64,000 nucleotides of DNA from Oscillospiraceae bacterium (lineage in GTDB: Bacteria > Bacillota > Clostridia > Oscillospirales > Ruminococcaceae): NCBI GenBank assembly GCA_045121595.1, contig JBGVGI010000003.1, positions 63,610-127,609 of the forward strand, written 5' to 3'. Within the stretch, counting starts at the first letter, position 1. Every line of letters starts with the position of its first letter. The position numbers were made by a program, and so were the translations under genes. Shown here piece after piece: positions 52,506 to 56,752 of the stretch. The notes under the pieces were generated by a model, which saw only the letters and a program-made list of their open reading frames with translations, did no database searches and was not told the origin of the DNA.

Positions 52506-53486
52506 TTATTTTGCCGCTTTCTGGATTTTGAGTGTTTCTTCGGACGAAGCAAGTATACCGGTTGTGTAGTCAACCTTTCCGCCTATATCATCTATAAAGT
52601 CTGTAAGGTAGTTTCTGTCTGTAACGATACCGTCACAGAGAGTAACTTTATCCTCAGTTTTCTTATAGAGTTTTACGGGTTCGTCTTTGGGACAGAAACA
52701 AATCATACCCTCTGTTCCCCAAACCTTGAATTCCCAGTAATAAGGCAAATCAAAGCCTATTCCGTTGGGAACAGTGTAGGAAACGTCTGCGATAACTCCA
52801 ACGTTGTTTGTCAAAGTGAGCATAAACTGTGCACTTTCTTTAAACTGAGGCTCTTTATCTGCAAGCTTGTTCCAGGTACGAGCCGCACAGATATCCATAA
52901 CGTCGAGCTTAAAGTAATTCTTGATAATGTCCATAGCGTGGATAGCAATATCGTTGATAGTGCCACCGTGCTTACCTTCTTCAAAGTACCAGGAAGGTCT
53001 TTCGCCGTAGTACAAAGGATGCTGACCGCCAAAGAGAATGTTATTCACTTCACCGATTTCGCCGTCTTCAATAAGCTTCTTTGCACAAAGCATATTTTTG
53101 TCGTAGCGAAGATCAAGCATAAGACCTACTTTAAGGCCCGTTTTCTTAACGAGCTTTTTAATCTCTTTGAGTTCTTTTAAAGAAGTACACAAAGGTTTGT
53201 CAGCAATAACGTGCTTACCTGCTTTTAAAGCTTTGATAACAAGTTCACCGCGTCTGCCGTAATAGTCACCGATAGCAACGATGTCGATATCGGGATTATT
53301 AAGGATTTCTTCGTATGTATCACAGTTAAAGTTTACGTTTTTCTTTTCTATTGCAGCTTTTCTGGCATCTTCATTTTCTTCCCATGCAGCAACGATTTCA
53401 ACGTCGGGGTTGTTTTCTGCTACACCGTAAAGACCGAAAATGTGGCCGTGACGGAAACCTGCAAAACCAATTTTAAGTGTACTCAT
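52506..53486 (-). CDS. Gfo/Idh/MocA oxidoreductase
   Basis: GFAGFRHGH, HVIADKP, INDIAIHAMD. Confidence 0.9.
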   Translation of the reverse strand: MSTLKIGFAGFRHGHIFGLYGVAENNPDVEIVAAWEENEDARKAAIEKKNVNFNCDTYEEILNNPDIDIVAIGDYYGRRGELVIKALKAGKHVIADKPLCTSLKELKEIKKLVKKTGLKVGLMLDLRYDKNMLCAKKLIEDGEIGEVNNILFGGQHPLYYGERPSWYFEEGKHGGTINDIAIHAMDIIKNYFKLDVMDICAARTWNKLADKEPQFKESAQFMLTLTNNVGVIADVSYTVPNGIGFDLPYYWEFKVWGTEGMICFCPKDEPVKLYKKTEDKVTLCDGIVTDRNYLTDFIDDIGGKVDYTTGILASSEETLKIQKAAK

Positions 53487-53498
53487 TTTTATTCTCCC

Positions 53499-54827
53499 TT
53501 ATTTACGGAAAGTTGTGATACTTCTTCCGTCACTCTTGAGCTGTTTTTCTTTTTCGTTCTTTTCAGCATCGTATTTGAGGAGGAGGTCAAGGTTGTCGAT
53601 TACTTTCTTGTGTGCATGGATATATTCATCAATAACAGTCTTGTCTTCATACTCAAATCTGGGAGCAGCATAGATAACACATTTGTTAAGATACTCGGAA
53701 ACTTCGAGGTACTCAGCGGGAGCATATTTTGCACCGTAGTGAGGACAACCGAAGTGACATTTTTCAGCGTAAGGGCCGTCAGCAGCAAAGAAAGGAGCTT
53801 TATGGAGTACACCGTATCCGCAAGGGCCTGTGAAAAGACCTTCAGCTGTCAAAGCTTCGAGCAATGTATGCATGGAAAGACCTTTGAGTTTTTCAGGGAG
53901 GTATTCAATATGGTGGTAAGCGTATACTCTGTTACCTCCGTCAACTTCTTTAAGAGGAATCATATGGCCCATTTCAGCAAGATGTTTGTCGAAGTATTCG
54001 CCGTTTTCTTTTCTGATTGCGTTGAGTTCGTCAAGTCTGTCAAGACCTGCTTCAGCAATAGCAGCAGCAAAGGGGTTGATTCTGTGTTTGAAACCAAAAC
54101 CTGTGAGGCTGTATTTTTTGTATTCAGAATCATCAGGAAGATTACCGAGTCTTTCGTAGTGACCGAGTGCACAAGCGCGTTCAAAGTATTCACGGTTATT
54201 CGTTACCATGATACCGCCTTCACCACCGGGGAGAACTTTAGAGCCCTGGAGTGAGAAGCATCCAATGTCACCGATAGAACCAACTTTTTTGCCTTTATAC
54301 TCAGCACCGTGAGCGTGAGAACAGTCTTCAATTACTTTGAGGTTATGTTTCTTAGCGAGTTCCATAATAGGATCCATATCGCAGGGGTTACCCCAAACGT
54401 GAACGAGAAGGATAGCCTTTGTTTTAGGAGTAATGCATTTTTCGATTGTTTCAGCTGTGAGAGTGTGAGAAGCACGGTCAACGTCAGCAAATACGGGGAT
54501 AGCGTTTGCTGCAGCAACGGGGCCTACTGTTGCCCAGAATGTAAAGGAAGGAACGATAACTTCATCACCTGCACCAACACCTACTGCAAAGAGAGCAGCC
54601 TGGATGGATGTTGTACCGTTAACGTAGCACAAGGAGTATTCTGTGCCGATATATTCTCTGAATTTCTTTTCAAATCTTGCTACTACGGGCGAAGCAGAAA
54701 TATCGCCTTTGATAAGCATATCGTTGATTACTTTGTAAGCTGAGTCTGCAACTACGGGGCGCTGACATCTTTCAAGTCCGCCTGATACCGCTTTTTCTCC
54801 ACCAAATAATGCTAATTTTTCTGTCAT
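53499..54827 (-). CDS. DegT/DnrJ/EryC1/StrS PLP-dependent sugar aminotransferase
   Basis: VIEDCSHAHG and FSLQGSKVLPGGEGG (PLP Lys). Confidence 0.92.
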   Translation of the reverse strand: MTEKLALFGGEKAVSGGLERCQRPVVADSAYKVINDMLIKGDISASPVVARFEKKFREYIGTEYSLCYVNGTTSIQAALFAVGVGAGDEVIVPSFTFWATVGPVAAANAIPVFADVDRASHTLTAETIEKCITPKTKAILLVHVWGNPCDMDPIMELAKKHNLKVIEDCSHAHGAEYKGKKVGSIGDIGCFSLQGSKVLPGGEGGIMVTNNREYFERACALGHYERLGNLPDDSEYKKYSLTGFGFKHRINPFAAAIAEAGLDRLDELNAIRKENGEYFDKHLAEMGHMIPLKEVDGGNRVYAYHHIEYLPEKLKGLSMHTLLEALTAEGLFTGPCGYGVLHKAPFFAADGPYAEKCHFGCPHYGAKYAPAEYLEVSEYLNKCVIYAAPRFEYEDKTVIDEYIHAHKKVIDNLDLLLKYDAEKNEKEKQLKSDGRSITTFRK

Positions 54828-54840
54828 AATAATTCTCTCC

Positions 54841-55851
54841 TTAAAAATTTATTTTTTTGCCTGATTTTGATGATTCATATATAGCACAAATAAGTTCAAC
54901 ACTTCGTCTGCCCTCATTTGCATCTATTAAAAGTTTCTCTCCGTTTTCGAGATGGTTTATAAGGTTTAAAATCTGTGCCTTATGTCCCGAGAACGAAATC
55001 TGTTTGGGGTCAGCAAAAGAAGCCACCAAAGCTTCTTTTTTCTCTTCCTTTTCGTCCCCTATATCCCAGTGAACGATAGCGTCTTCCTCTAAAACGATAC
55101 TGCCTTCGGTTCCGCAAATTTCAAACTGTCTGGGATAACCGGGAGTAACAGAAGTAGTACCCTCGATAGTACCGATAGCGCCGTTTTCAAATTCAACTAC
55201 CGCAACGGCAGTATCCTCTACCTCGATATCGTGCTTTAAGGTTCTGCAGAAAGCAAAAACGCTTTTCACGTCCCCCATATAGTAAAGCATAAGGTCAACG
55301 CCGTGGATACCCTGATTCATCAAAGCACCACCGCCGTCCATAGCCCAGGTGCCTCTCCAGTTTGAGGAAGCATAGTATTCTTCCGAACGGAAGTATTTCA
55401 TATGCACACCGCATTCAACAAGCTTACCGAGTTTATTTTCAGCAATTGCCTTTTTAACCTTTTTGCTTGTTTCGGAAAAACGAAGCTGAGAGATAACAAC
55501 ACAGCTTTTACCCGTTTCAACTTGAGTGTCAACAAGTTTCTGACAGTCTTCAGGGGTAATTGCCATTGGTTTTTCAACCACAACGTTTTTGCCACTCTTC
55601 ATTGCAGCAATCGCAGTTTTTGCGTGCATACCGCTTGGGGTACAGATACAAACGATATCAATATTTTCATCACTTAAAAGCTCTTCTTCGCTTTTAAACT
55701 TCTTACTACCCCACTTTTCGCAAAATGCGTCAGCCGCTTTTTCGTAAGGGTCGTAAGCGCCGTAGATTTCAGCATTTTCGATACTATCTATCGCGAGAGC
55801 GTGAATTCCTGCAATAAATCCGCAACCGATAATTCCAAACTTATAGCTCAT
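54841..55851 (-). CDS. Gfo/Idh/MocA oxidoreductase
   Basis: GIIGCGFIA, VVEKP, DGGGALMNQGIHGVD. Confidence 0.92.
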   Translation of the reverse strand: MSYKFGIIGCGFIAGIHALAIDSIENAEIYGAYDPYEKAADAFCEKWGSKKFKSEEELLSDENIDIVCICTPSGMHAKTAIAAMKSGKNVVVEKPMAITPEDCQKLVDTQVETGKSCVVISQLRFSETSKKVKKAIAENKLGKLVECGVHMKYFRSEEYYASSNWRGTWAMDGGGALMNQGIHGVDLMLYYMGDVKSVFAFCRTLKHDIEVEDTAVAVVEFENGAIGTIEGTTSVTPGYPRQFEICGTEGSIVLEEDAIVHWDIGDEKEEKKEALVASFADPKQISFSGHKAQILNLINHLENGEKLLIDANEGRRSVELICAIYESSKSGKKINF

Positions 55852-55852
55852 T

Positions 55853-56752
55853 TTATTCCCCCTCTAAAAGTCTTAATGCGTTATCTCTACATACTTTTCT
55901 GTATGCATCGTAGCTTATCTTACCCTGCTCCATAGCTTCGTCTAAAAATTCAGGAAGCTTCATCAAAGGACGATCGTAAGGGTCGGGAGTGCAGATATCA
56001 GCACCGTAATAAATTCTGTCCTGAAATTCTTCAATAAACTTGTATGTAAACTCAGGGTCACGTGTCAGAGCAAAGTATCCGCTGCCTGCAGACACGTCGC
56101 AGTGGAGGTTTTTGTATTTTCTCATAAGCTCCACAACTCTGCCGCCTTCGGTTACGGGGCCTTCGTGATACTGTCCACGAGATTTAAGATAACAGTCACC
56201 GCTTATCTCGTTCCAGAATTTTGTGGAATGTCCTATAAAAATGAGATTCGGGAACATCTTAAGTACCTTTTCAAGTCTGGGAAGTCCCATTTCGTCGGCA
56301 ACGCCGTAATCCCTTCCCATCTGTCCGATATGGAAAAGTACCGGCATATTACAAGCTTCACAATGCTTAAAGAGGTTAATCATCATAGGGTCGTCAAAAT
56401 ACATATTCTTTGTAAGCTCACCGACGCCCTTAGCACCAAGCGCTTTATACTGCTCAAGGTAGAATGAAAGGTTTACGTCAGGGTCGTTACATTCAAAACC
56501 TGGGTCAAAGTTACAAAACCACCAGCCAATGGTATCGGGGCGTTCTTTTGCAATTTTTATAACCTCGGGAATCGACTGGGACTGCGGACAACCTGCATTG
56601 TCAACCAAGGGAAGAAGTACTGCCTTCTCAACGCCCATCACGTCGTATGCACGGCGCATATCGTCGACGGTCGGGAAGCATCCGTACGGACCTTTGATAA
56701 CGTTTTCTGCAAGAGCATGGCAGTGAATATCAATTTTTTTAAGTCTTTGCAT
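55853..56752 (-). CDS. Amidohydrolase_2 family metallohydrolase
   Basis: IDIHCH, GVGE, VLFH, IGHS, YYGAD. Confidence 0.85.
   Translation of the reverse strand: MQRLKKIDIHCHALAENVIKGPYGCFPTVDDMRRAYDVMGVEKAVLLPLVDNAGCPQSQSIPEVIKIAKERPDTIGWWFCNFDPGFECNDPDVNLSFYLEQYKALGAKGVGELTKNMYFDDPMMINLFKHCEACNMPVLFHIGQMGRDYGVADEMGLPRLEKVLKMFPNLIFIGHSTKFWNEISGDCYLKSRGQYHEGPVTEGGRVVELMRKYKNLHCDVSAGSGYFALTRDPEFTYKFIEEFQDRIYYGADICTPDPYDRPLMKLPEFLDEAMEQGKISYDAYRKVCRDNALRLLEGE

What the first reader, a model, noticed from the sequence alone, without database searches (positions are those of the whole stretch)
52506..56752. Amidohydrolase-Gfo-DegT aminotransferase-Gfo module feeding the uronate operon
Seen: four same-strand genes with gaps of 1-13 nt between them, continuing via araC into nagB. 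No nucleotidyltransferase, glycosyltransferase or flippase is present. Established: DegT/Gfo pairs (WbpE/WbpB, NtdA/NtdC) interconvert C3-keto and C3-amino sugars, usually in biosynthesis. Inference: run in reverse (deacylate, transaminate to 3-keto, reduce), they could strip a second amino group from 2,3-diamino-uronates or a kanosamine/inosamine-type sugar before the NagA/NagB steps. That would be a catabolic use of a biosynthetic enzyme set.
Basis: inference. Interest (0 to 1): 0.65.

Follow-up and report, generated by a model that had tools for sequence, protein, structure and literature searches.

The report
Amino-sugar breakdown operon using a transaminase
A gut Clostridia genome has a nine-gene operon that most likely removes acyl and amino groups from an imported, unphosphorylated amino sugar by transamination and keto-reduction, a breakdown route that I found described nowhere in the searchable literature and whose substrate is unknown.

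Summary
The four genes are real and tightly packed on the minus strand, with gaps of 1, 13 and 12 nt. They open a nine-gene operon: Amidohydro_2, Gfo1, DegT, Gfo2, AraC, NagB-like, NagA-like, UxuA, UxuB. The operon runs from a promoter at 56908-56881 to a strong hairpin after uxuB.

The catabolic reading is supported. Related loci combine the same families with a sugar ABC importer, esterases and glycosidases. None of the loci annotated in full has a glycosyltransferase or nucleotidyltransferase.

Three points need correction.
- The "amidohydrolase" belongs to the decarboxylase/lactonase/uronate-isomerase branch of its superfamily. A deacylase role is unsupported.
- The module is a fusion of two recurrent sub-modules: Amidohydro_2 + WlbA-like Gfo1, and ceramidase-like + DegT + Gfo2.
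- The module recurs with nagA/nagB-like genes, but with uxuAB only in the closest relative. The uronate link is therefore lineage-specific.

Gfo1's closest solved relative is WlbA, the UDP-GlcNAcA 3-dehydrogenase. That favours C3 chemistry on a 2-acetamido sugar. The substrate and nucleotide independence remain untested. No paper found describes this route.

The parts
58318..59607 (-). Ceramidase-like Zn-amidase candidate (CerL), 429 aa counted from the MYFG start.
   Evidence: No Pfam hit. A profile of 5 homologues matches neutral ceramidases 4wgk and 2zws (E = 6e-12 and 1e-11) over the N-terminal catalytic part. Invariant columns include H32-D33, T87-H88-x-H90, H188-P189, E351 and Y380. Homologues lie within 4.5 kb of DegT in L087, L088, L089, L116 and L029 (immediately upstream in L088, L089, L116 and L029; with Amidohydro_2 and Gfo1 between in L087 and L088's case only Amidohydro_2/Gfo1 following), about 5 kb away in L130 and about 9 kb away in L001.
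57000..58328 (-). MATE-family transporter. It overlaps the CerL stop by 11 nt and is absent at this position in the closest relative L087.
   Evidence: Pfam MatE 154.8 bits; TIGR00797 165 bits, above its 147 cut-off. L087 has CerL, then its own terminator, then the same promoter, with no MatE.
56965..56992 (-). Palindrome TGTCAAAGTTCTGCCAAGGATTTTGACA followed by a T-run. It may be the terminator of the CerL-MatE unit, an operator, or both.
   Evidence: Terminator-like hit with 12 pairs. It is conserved in L087 although no MatE precedes it there.
56881..56908 (-). Promoter-like site TTGAAA-16-TATAAT of the nine-gene operon.
   Evidence: 11 of 12 matches, the best in the 15.5-kb scan. Conserved in L087.
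55853..56752 (-). Amidohydro_2 protein (Amh2), a metal-dependent TIM-barrel enzyme whose reaction is unknown.
   Evidence: PF04909 31.3 bits. No NCBIfam hit. Invariant D8, H10, H12, E112, H175 and D252 in 9 homologues. The profile hits 3irs, LigW and gamma-resorcylate decarboxylase. AF2 model pLDDT 85.5. Foldseek gives ACMSD and decarboxylases, lactonases (4dlf, 4mup) and uronate isomerase BH0493, with TM about 0.55-0.6.
54841..55851 (-). Gfo1, a Gfo/Idh/MocA oxidoreductase of the WlbA type. It is the candidate 3-ketoreductase or 3-dehydrogenase of a 2-acetamido sugar.
   Evidence: Pfam. Best PDB hits are WlbA 3q2i and 3q2k at 178 and 175 bits, aligned end to end, with an EKP motif and GGGALMNQGIH. 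Below every NCBIfam cut-off.
53499..54827 (-). DegT-family PLP aminotransferase of a long (about 440 aa) clade.
   Evidence: PF01041 281.5 bits. K197 in the SLQGSK motif and D168 are invariant in 22 homologues. Best PDB hits are perosamine synthase (191 bits), BtrR (179) and Fic25 8gyh (178); WbpE scores 140 and NtdA 103. It falls in a supported tree clade whose six members all lie beside a Gfo2 orthologue.
52506..53486 (-). Gfo2, a second Gfo/Idh/MocA oxidoreductase and the constant neighbour of this DegT clade.
   Evidence: Pfam. Best PDB hits are uncharacterised (3u3x, 81 bits). Orthologues at 50-94% identity adjoin DegT in L087, L088, L089, L116 and L001.
51632..52468 (-). AraC-family regulator with a cupin-type sensor domain, inside the operon.
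   Evidence: HTH_18 79 bits and AraC_binding 31 bits. AraC genes accompany the module in L001, L003, L007, L008, L087, L088 and L133.
50856..51623 (-). NagB-like deaminase/isomerase paralogue.
   Evidence: PF01182 57 bits. TIGR00502 135 bits, below its 237 cut-off. The genome has a better-scoring NagB on contig C12. Orthologues at 41-94% identity lie in DegT loci.
49675..50859 (-). NagA-like deacetylase paralogue.
   Evidence: TIGR00221 244 bits, just above its 226 cut-off. The genome has a better NagA (325 bits) on contig C26. Orthologues at 42-89% identity lie in DegT loci.
48629..49678 (-). UxuA, mannonate dehydratase. It is the only copy in the genome.
   Evidence: PF03786 456 bits. It is the single hit in the genome.
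47782..48660 (-). UxuB, an SDR-type D-mannonate oxidoreductase.
   Evidence: NF006132 432 bits, above its 281 cut-off.
47718..47757 (-). Hairpin plus U-rich tail that ends the operon.
   Evidence: -25 kcal/mol, z = -6.3, 0 of 200 shuffles as stable.

Best explanation
The four genes are the upstream half of an AraC-controlled, nine-gene catabolic operon for an unphosphorylated, N-acylated amino sugar. The substrate most likely carries a second amino group besides the one at C2.

Proposed order of steps (all inferred):
1. An N-acyl group is removed. The ceramidase-like amidase encoded just upstream is the best candidate. Amidohydro_2 may do this instead, or it may carry out an isomerase- or lactonase-type step.
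2. The DegT enzyme transfers the freed, non-C2 amino group to a 2-oxo acid and leaves a keto sugar.
3. A Gfo/Idh/MocA enzyme reduces the ketone with NAD(P)H. The WlbA-like Gfo1 points to C3 of a 2-acetamido sugar. Gfo2 is the usual partner of this DegT clade.
4. The NagA-like and NagB-like paralogues deacetylate and deaminate/isomerise at C2.
5. In this lineage the resulting ketose would be fructuronate, taken by UxuB and UxuA to 2-keto-3-deoxygluconate.

Shown: the gene families, the operon structure, the conserved gene partnerships, and import and esterase genes in related loci. Not shown: the direction of the reactions, the position of the amine, independence from nucleotide sugars, and the substrate.
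For: Operon anatomy.

No biosynthetic partner genes between 43 and 64 kb.

Conserved partnerships around DegT homologues (34-87% identical): Gfo in 15 loci, Amidohydro_2 in 13, AraC in 12, ceramidase-like in 8, NagB-like in 8 and NagA-like in 6.

The L133, L008 and L132 loci carry one co-directional operon: Amidohydro_2, solute-binding protein, two permeases, Gfo, SIS_2, NagB-like, NagA-like, Gfo1, DegT. This puts an importer in the same unit.

SASA and GDSL esterases and GH51, GH106, GH123 and GH36 genes lie nearby in L001, L087, L088 and L089.

The only N-acetyltransferase-type gene seen was a GNAT in the distant locus L029.

Gfo1 matches WlbA at 178 bits over its full length. The ceramidase-like profile hits 4wgk and 2zws at about 1e-11.

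The DegT keeps its PLP lysine, so it is an aminotransferase and not a dehydratase.

The operon's NagA and NagB are extra paralogues. Better-scoring canonical copies lie elsewhere in the genome.

The operon is accessory. Its DegT occurs in 3 of 401 genomes of the family, in none of the 3 other genomes of the genus, and in 17 of 401 genomes of the order.
Against: The window has no importer. The only transporter is a MATE exporter-type protein.

Many genomes of the order carry a DegT of this family (51-54% identical) with no partner genes nearby (L005, L117-L124). Others carry 4-5 tandem copies (L126, L127). The clade is therefore not tied to one pathway.

Amidohydro_2's structural relatives are decarboxylases, lactonases and an isomerase, not deacylases.

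uxuAB is linked only in L087. This is also the genome's sole uxuA, while uxaC sits in a uxaCAB cluster elsewhere. uxuAB may therefore simply be the ordinary glucuronate branch placed here.

DegT relatives include enzymes for nucleotide sugars, free cyclitols and carrier-protein-bound substrates with similar scores.
Confidence: 0.55

Rival explanations
1. Biosynthesis of a free amino sugar or aminocyclitol, of the kanosamine or inosamine type. A Gfo enzyme oxidises a hydroxyl, DegT aminates the ketone, and the neighbouring MATE transporter exports the product, as in NtdABC/KabABC or 2-deoxystreptamine-type chemistry.
For: DegT scores as well against the BtrR, RbmB and NeoB cyclitol aminotransferases (167-179 bits) as against sugar enzymes. 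Both Gfo proteins hit the inositol 2-dehydrogenase model below its cut-off (153 and 90 bits). A MATE transporter lies directly upstream. DegT+Gfo pairs are biosynthetic in every characterised case (established knowledge).
Against: There is no phosphatase, acetyltransferase, glycosyltransferase or other tailoring gene. The partners are deacylases (NagA-like, ceramidase-like), a deaminase, esterases and, in the L133-type loci, an ABC importer with a solute-binding protein. MatE is absent from the closest relative L087 and from the other loci with a multi-gene module; one standalone-DegT locus (L123) has a 25%-identical MatE hit about 1 kb downstream. KabA and NtdA are weak matches (103-113 bits).
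Confidence: 0.12
2. A mosaic of ordinary pathways with no joint function. nagBA and uxuAB would serve GlcNAc and glucuronate (for example hyaluronan- or heparosan-type disaccharides). The four upstream genes would act on an unrelated substrate, such as an inositol, an aminocyclitol or a non-sugar amine.
For: uxuAB is linked to the module only in L087. This is the genome's sole uxuA, and uxaC is elsewhere. NagA-like passes the nagA equivalog cut-off (244 bits, cut-off 226). DegT-family enzymes also act on non-sugars, for example Fic25 (8gyh) on carrier-protein-bound substrates.
Against: NagB-like and NagA-like genes recur beside DegT, Gfo1 and Amidohydro_2 in four other distinct arrangements without uxuAB. 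Better canonical NagA and NagB copies exist elsewhere in this genome. The nine genes share one promoter and one terminator, with gaps of 37 nt or less.
Confidence: 0.15
3. An oxidation-elimination (3-keto-glycoside) route. One Gfo enzyme oxidises C3 of a glycoside. Amidohydro_2 acts as the lyase or hydratase. The second Gfo enzyme reduces the 3-keto sugar. DegT handles 3-amino variants or a side reaction.
For: Two Gfo enzymes in one cluster is the layout of the gut 3-keto-glycoside pathway (bioRxiv 10.1101/2024.03.25.586180). Both Gfo proteins hit DgpA, glucuronide 3-dehydrogenase and BT_2158/2159-type models weakly. L003 carries a xylose-isomerase-like TIM barrel beside DegT.
Against: The window has no sugar-phosphate-isomerase-like lyase or DUF1080 gene. 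This reading gives no role to DegT, the most conserved member. The proteins have no signal peptides (read directly from the sequences), whereas that pathway is largely periplasmic.
Confidence: 0.08

Closest known systems
WlbA/WbpB + WlbC/WbpE (UDP-GlcNAcA 3-dehydrogenase and 3-aminotransferase in ManNAc3NAcA biosynthesis); also GnnA/GnnB for GlcN3N in lipid A
   Same: It has a Gfo/Idh/MocA enzyme next to a DegT aminotransferase. Gfo1 aligns end to end with WlbA of Chromobacterium and Bordetella (178 and 175 bits). The chemistry interconverts hydroxyl, ketone and amine on a 2-acetamido sugar.
   Different: There is no UDP-GlcNAc 6-dehydrogenase, N-acetyltransferase, 2-epimerase or glycosyltransferase. 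WbpE is not the DegT's nearest relative (140 bits against 191). The context is deacylases, a deaminase, a regulator and, in relatives, importers. This suggests the reverse direction on free sugars.
NagA/NagB GlcNAc-6-phosphate catabolism
   Same: A deacetylase and a deaminase/isomerase of the same families lie in the same order downstream of the module.
   Different: They are extra paralogues that score below or barely above the equivalog cut-offs. No kinase or PTS gene lies in any related locus.
Neutral ceramidase (P. aeruginosa 2ZWS, human ASAH2 4WGK)
   Same: The upstream 429-aa protein's family profile matches the catalytic N-terminal domain (E about 1e-11). Conserved His, Glu and Tyr columns are present.
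   Different: It is about 220-260 residues shorter, lacks a signal peptide and the C-terminal domain, and has no Pfam hit. Its context is sugar genes, not lipid genes.
NtdABC/KabABC kanosamine and BtrR/StsC aminocyclitol pathways
   Same: A Gfo-type dehydrogenase and a DegT-type aminotransferase act on substrates without a nucleotide handle. These pathways show that the family does not need NDP-sugars.
   Different: Those pathways are biosynthetic and include a phosphatase or cyclase. NtdA and KabA are only weak matches (103-113 bits).
Gut 3-keto-glycoside pathway (AL/BT clusters; bioRxiv 10.1101/2024.03.25.586180)
   Same: It uses two Gfo/Idh/MocA oxidoreductases in one catabolic cluster and keto-sugar intermediates.
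   Different: No lyase or hydratase families (sugar-phosphate-isomerase-like, DUF1080) are present here. This module is cytoplasmic and contains an aminotransferase.

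Membership tests
DegT/DnrJ/EryC1/StrS aminotransferases (PF01041) | Profile match above the curated cut-off | tested here: met
   281.5 bits, cut-off 19.8.
DegT/DnrJ/EryC1/StrS aminotransferases (PF01041) | Schiff-base lysine present (aminotransferase, not a His-containing dehydratase) | tested here: met
   K197 in FSLQGSK is invariant in 22 homologues; D168 is also invariant.
DegT/DnrJ/EryC1/StrS aminotransferases (PF01041) | Substrate is a nucleotide-linked keto sugar | not testable with these tools
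   The top PDB matches mix GDP-sugar, free cyclitol and carrier-protein enzymes with similar scores.
Wbp/Wlb pathway (WbpA, B, E, D, I) for UDP-ManNAc3NAcA | 3-dehydrogenase of the WlbA/WbpB type | tested here: met
   Gfo1 against 3q2i and 3q2k: 178 and 175 bits over the full length.
Wbp/Wlb pathway (WbpA, B, E, D, I) for UDP-ManNAc3NAcA | The aminotransferase is the closest relative of WbpE/WlbC | tested here: not met
   WbpE 140 bits, against 191 for perosamine synthase and 179 for BtrR.
Wbp/Wlb pathway (WbpA, B, E, D, I) for UDP-ManNAc3NAcA | Companion 6-dehydrogenase, N-acetyltransferase and 2-epimerase genes | tested here: not met
   None among the ORFs between 43 and 64 kb.
NtdABC/KabABC kanosamine synthesis | HAD phosphatase partner and an NtdA/KabA-like aminotransferase | tested here: not met
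   No HAD domain in the operon. NtdA 103 bits and KabA 113 bits.
Amidohydro_2 (PF04909; COG2159/COG3618 branch) | Profile match, plus an HxH motif, a later His and a strand-8 Asp | tested here: met
   31.3 bits, cut-off 26.4. H10, H12, H175 and D252 are invariant. Fold matches to ACMSD, LigW, lactonases and BH0493.
   No such match by Pfam, NCBIfam, PDB profile or Foldseek.
Gfo/Idh/MocA oxidoreductases | N-terminal Rossmann and C-terminal domains, and an E/D-K-P motif | tested here: met
   Pfam hits for both proteins. VVEKPMA in Gfo1 and IADKPLC in Gfo2 (read directly).
Neutral ceramidase (PF04734) | Catalytic N-terminal domain | tested here: met
   Family profile against 4wgk and 2zws, E = 6e-12 and 1e-11, over residues 2-248.
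Neutral ceramidase (PF04734) | Full-length architecture with the C-terminal domain, secretion, and a Pfam-level match | tested here: not met
   429 aa against 646-688 aa. No Pfam hit for the window protein. No signal peptide counted from the conserved MYFG start.
Canonical NagA/NagB | Score above the equivalog cut-off | tested here: inconclusive
   NagA-like 244 bits, cut-off 226. NagB-like 135 bits, cut-off 237. Better copies lie elsewhere in the genome.

The most novel reading that the evidence does not exclude
The operon, together with the upstream ceramidase-like gene, would be a complete phosphorylation- and nucleotide-independent 'reverse Wbp' pathway. It would let a gut Clostridium feed on 2,3-di-N-acyl-2,3-dideoxy-hexuronic acids, or a similar N-acylated amino-uronate, from other microbes' surface glycans.

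The steps would be: N3 deacylation; DegT transamination to the 3-keto sugar; reduction by WlbA-like Gfo1 to N-acetylglucosaminuronate; deacetylation by NagA-like; conversion by NagB-like directly to fructuronate; and conversion by UxuB and UxuA to KDG, with no need for UxaC.
Probability: 0.15. Interest if true: 0.8.

Novelty: new variant of a known kind. Interest (0 to 1): 0.55.

Why it matters
DegT/Gfo pairs are textbook biosynthetic enzymes for unusual amino sugars of LPS, capsules and antibiotics. A catabolic, nucleotide-free use of them would explain how gut and environmental bacteria recycle the rare amino sugars of microbial cell surfaces.

It would also assign functions to three large unannotated groups: the long DegT clade, the short cytoplasmic ceramidase-fold amidases, and this Amidohydro_2 branch. 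In addition, it would show NagA and NagB paralogues working on non-phosphorylated substrates.

This window adds a specific and testable variant, in which the module is fused in one operon to uxuAB. It also shows that the four-gene block combines two sub-modules around a single aminotransferase.

Tried and rejected
- C-terminal 152 residues of DegT against the PDB: no homologue. The extension gives no functional clue.
- PDB entry 8gyh, which has the same length and N-terminal register, is Fic25, a carrier-protein-dependent aminotransferase of ficellomycin synthesis. It is not an orthologue in context.
- I tried to read the two WlbA structure papers, to check whether Gfo1 keeps the UDP-binding residues. 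Neither is held.
- Five literature searches for a catabolic DegT/Gfo, transaminase or ceramidase-like amino-sugar route found no description.
- IlvD/Edd as a sugar-acid dehydratase of the pathway: rejected. It passes the ilvD equivalog cut-off and lies behind a strong hairpin and its own promoter-like site.
- Sphingolipid breakdown, suggested by the ceramidase fold: set aside because every recurring partner is a sugar-type enzyme.
The list of distant relatives is therefore a sample, and the counts are not frequencies.

Full report
**Observation.**
- Pfam assigns Amidohydro_2 (weak: 31.3 bits, cut-off 26.4), Gfo/Idh/MocA, DegT_DnrJ_EryC1 (281.5 bits) and Gfo/Idh/MocA again.
- None of the four reaches any NCBIfam equivalog cut-off, so none has a named function.
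- Downstream come AraC (37-nt gap), a NagB-like gene (8 nt), a NagA-like gene and UxuA (each overlapping its upstream gene by 4 nt), and an SDR-type mannonate oxidoreductase, UxuB.
- The best promoter-like site in the region (TTGAAA-16-TATAAT, 56908-56881) precedes the first gene.
- A hairpin of -25 kcal/mol (z = -6.3) with a U-rich tail follows uxuB.
- The unit is therefore nine genes. The next two genes, a 242-aa membrane-anchored protein and a true ilvD (TIGR00110, 766 bits, cut-off 618), have their own promoter-like site and are not part of it.
- No nucleotidyltransferase, glycosyltransferase or flippase domain occurs between 43 and 64 kb.

**The individual proteins.**
- DegT (442 aa) keeps the PLP lysine (K197) and the conserved Asp, so it is an aminotransferase. 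Its nearest solved relatives are a mixture: GDP-perosamine synthase (191 bits), the cyclitol enzyme BtrR (179), and Fic25 (8gyh, 178), which acts on a carrier-protein-bound substrate. WbpE (140), KabA (113) and NtdA (103) are more distant. Sequence therefore does not show whether the substrate carries a nucleotide.
- Gfo1 aligns end to end with WlbA, the UDP-GlcNAcA 3-dehydrogenase of Chromobacterium and Bordetella (178 and 175 bits). The next structure scores 108 bits. This is the one piece of direct support for C3 chemistry on a 2-acetamido sugar.
- Gfo2 has only uncharacterised structural relatives.
- The Amidohydro_2 protein keeps the HxH motif, a later His and the strand-8 Asp. A confident AF2 model (pLDDT 85.5) and a family profile match only the COG2159/COG3618 branch: ACMSD, LigW and gamma-resorcylate decarboxylases, sugar lactonases and uronate isomerase BH0493. 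TM is about 0.55-0.6 and identity 10-17%. Nothing links it to sugar deacetylases.

**A missed partner.** I clustered ORFs from 43 loci (42 related loci plus the window). The unannotated gene at 58318-59607 has homologues near the DegT gene in L087, L088, L089, L116, L029, L130 and L001.
- A profile of this family matches the catalytic domain of neutral ceramidases (4wgk and 2zws, E about 1e-11). Conserved His, Glu and Tyr columns are present.
- It is short (429 aa) and has no signal peptide.
- In the window it is followed by a MATE transporter that overlaps its stop codon. In the closest relative, L087, there is no MATE gene. There the ceramidase-like gene is followed by its own terminator and then the same palindrome and promoter as in the window. 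The MATE gene is therefore a local difference, and the ceramidase-like gene is the ancestral neighbour.

**Neighbourhood evidence.**
- Proteins at least 50% identical to this DegT are common in Oscillospirales-type metagenome assemblies.
- The gene is rare and patchy. It occurs in 3 of 401 genomes of the family, in none of the 3 other genomes of the genus, and in 17 of 401 genomes of the order.
- Across loci, the recurring neighbours are Gfo, Amidohydro_2, AraC, ceramidase-like, NagB-like and NagA-like genes.
- L133, L008 and L132 hold a single co-directional operon: Amidohydro_2, solute-binding protein, two permeases, Gfo, SIS_2, NagB-like, NagA-like, Gfo1, DegT. An importer in the same unit, deacylases rather than acetyltransferases, and nearby SASA and GDSL esterases and glycoside hydrolases all argue for breakdown rather than synthesis.
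- uxuAB accompanies the module only in L087 (DegT 84% identical).

**The module is composite.** In a maximum-likelihood tree of 52 DegT sequences, the window protein falls in a well-supported six-member clade (100/97).
- All six members lie next to a Gfo2 orthologue (50-94% identical). Five of them have the ceramidase-like gene within 4.5 kb.
- A separate clade contains L001's second DegT (joined at 82/71) and a supported four-member core (100/99). Three of those four (L019, L030, L031) lie directly beside Amidohydro_2 in Lentisphaerota and Planctomycetota; the Verrucomicrobiota member L015 has no Amidohydro_2 nearby. L054 (Armatimonadota) also has the DegT-Amidohydro_2 pair but branches elsewhere in the tree.
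- L001 has both pairs, each with its own DegT.
- The window and L088 have one DegT flanked by Gfo1 plus Amidohydro_2 on one side and Gfo2 on the other.
- The four-gene block is best read as two sub-modules sharing one aminotransferase: Amidohydro_2 with WlbA-like Gfo1, and ceramidase-like with DegT and Gfo2.

**The link to uxu.**
- The operon's uxuA is the only one in the genome.
- uxaC lies in a GH4, esterase, uxaB, uxaA, uxaC cluster on another contig. A KDPG-type aldolase is present elsewhere.
- Fructuronate from ordinary glucuronate would therefore also have to pass through this operon's UxuB and UxuA. Their presence does not prove an amino-uronate substrate.
- On the other hand, the operon's NagA-like and NagB-like genes are extra paralogues alongside better canonical copies. 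A NagB-type reaction on 2-amino-2-deoxy-glucuronate would give fructuronate directly. This attractive reading stays unproven.

**Mechanism and rivals.**
- Best reading (0.55): de-N-acylation, transamination of a non-C2 amine, keto-reduction, then NagA-like and NagB-like steps. In this lineage UxuB and UxuA follow.
- Biosynthesis of an exported amino compound (0.12). The deacylases and importers argue against it.
- A mosaic of unrelated pathways (0.15). The recurrent DegT-nagAB-like linkage and the single transcription unit argue against it.
- A 3-keto-glycoside oxidation-elimination route (0.08; compare bioRxiv 10.1101/2024.03.25.586180). It lacks the lyase families and gives DegT no role.

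**Earlier notes.** Earlier AI notes in this scan describe the same ceramidase-like, DegT and Gfo trio in many genomes, and describe this operon's nagBA-uxuAB half. I reached the ceramidase-like partner independently before reading them. They agree with my reading but are not independent evidence.

**Novelty.** All the enzyme families are known. Five full-text searches found no description of a catabolic, nucleotide-free DegT/Gfo route. I rate it a new variant of a known kind, namely amino-sugar catabolism built from enzyme families otherwise known from biosynthesis. Interest is moderate to good. The substrate and the reaction direction still need experiments.

Noticed in passing
L126 (G511:C27:1-6654) and L127 (G654:C7:101.7-109 kb): Four and five tandem paralogous DegT genes of about 440 aa (45-50% identical to the window's) lie head to tail in two genomes of another family of the same order. 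Such arrays suggest diversification of substrate range.
   Followed up: partly
L005, L006 and L122, DegT at about 10001-11332: A DegT of the same family (53% identical) stands alone between tex and hslO, with no sugar genes nearby. The family is not always clustered with partners.
   Followed up: partly
window 56819-56845: A perfect 12-bp palindrome (GGAATAGTAAAC / GTTTACTATTCC) lies in a leader segment of about 75 nt between the promoter and the first gene. L087 lacks this segment. It may be an inserted REP-like element or a regulatory hairpin.
   Followed up: no
window 56965-56992: The palindrome TGTCAAAGTTCTGCCAAGGATTTTGACA just upstream of the operon promoter is conserved in L087, where no MatE gene precedes it. 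It may be a regulator binding site rather than only the MatE terminator.
   Followed up: partly
own genome contig C12, about 26.7-33 kb (L134:9705-15992): A GH4 glycosidase, a glucuronoyl-esterase-like hydrolase, uxaB, uxaA and uxaC form a cluster with a divergent AraC gene. The genome's only uxuA is in the studied operon, so the glucuronate branch is split between two loci.
   Followed up: partly
L088:6031-6738, L089:7799-8497, L116:12123-12830: A SASA-type (sialate O-acetylesterase family) gene lies beside the ceramidase-like, DegT and Gfo2 trio in three loci. This hints that the substrate is also O-acetylated.
   Followed up: no
L001:3023-3802 and L003:9133-9975: A Peptidase_M55 (DppA-type D-aminopeptidase) gene and a xylose-isomerase-like TIM-barrel gene are inserted into otherwise similar DegT, Gfo and nagAB-like clusters. 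These are accessory steps absent from the window.
   Followed up: no
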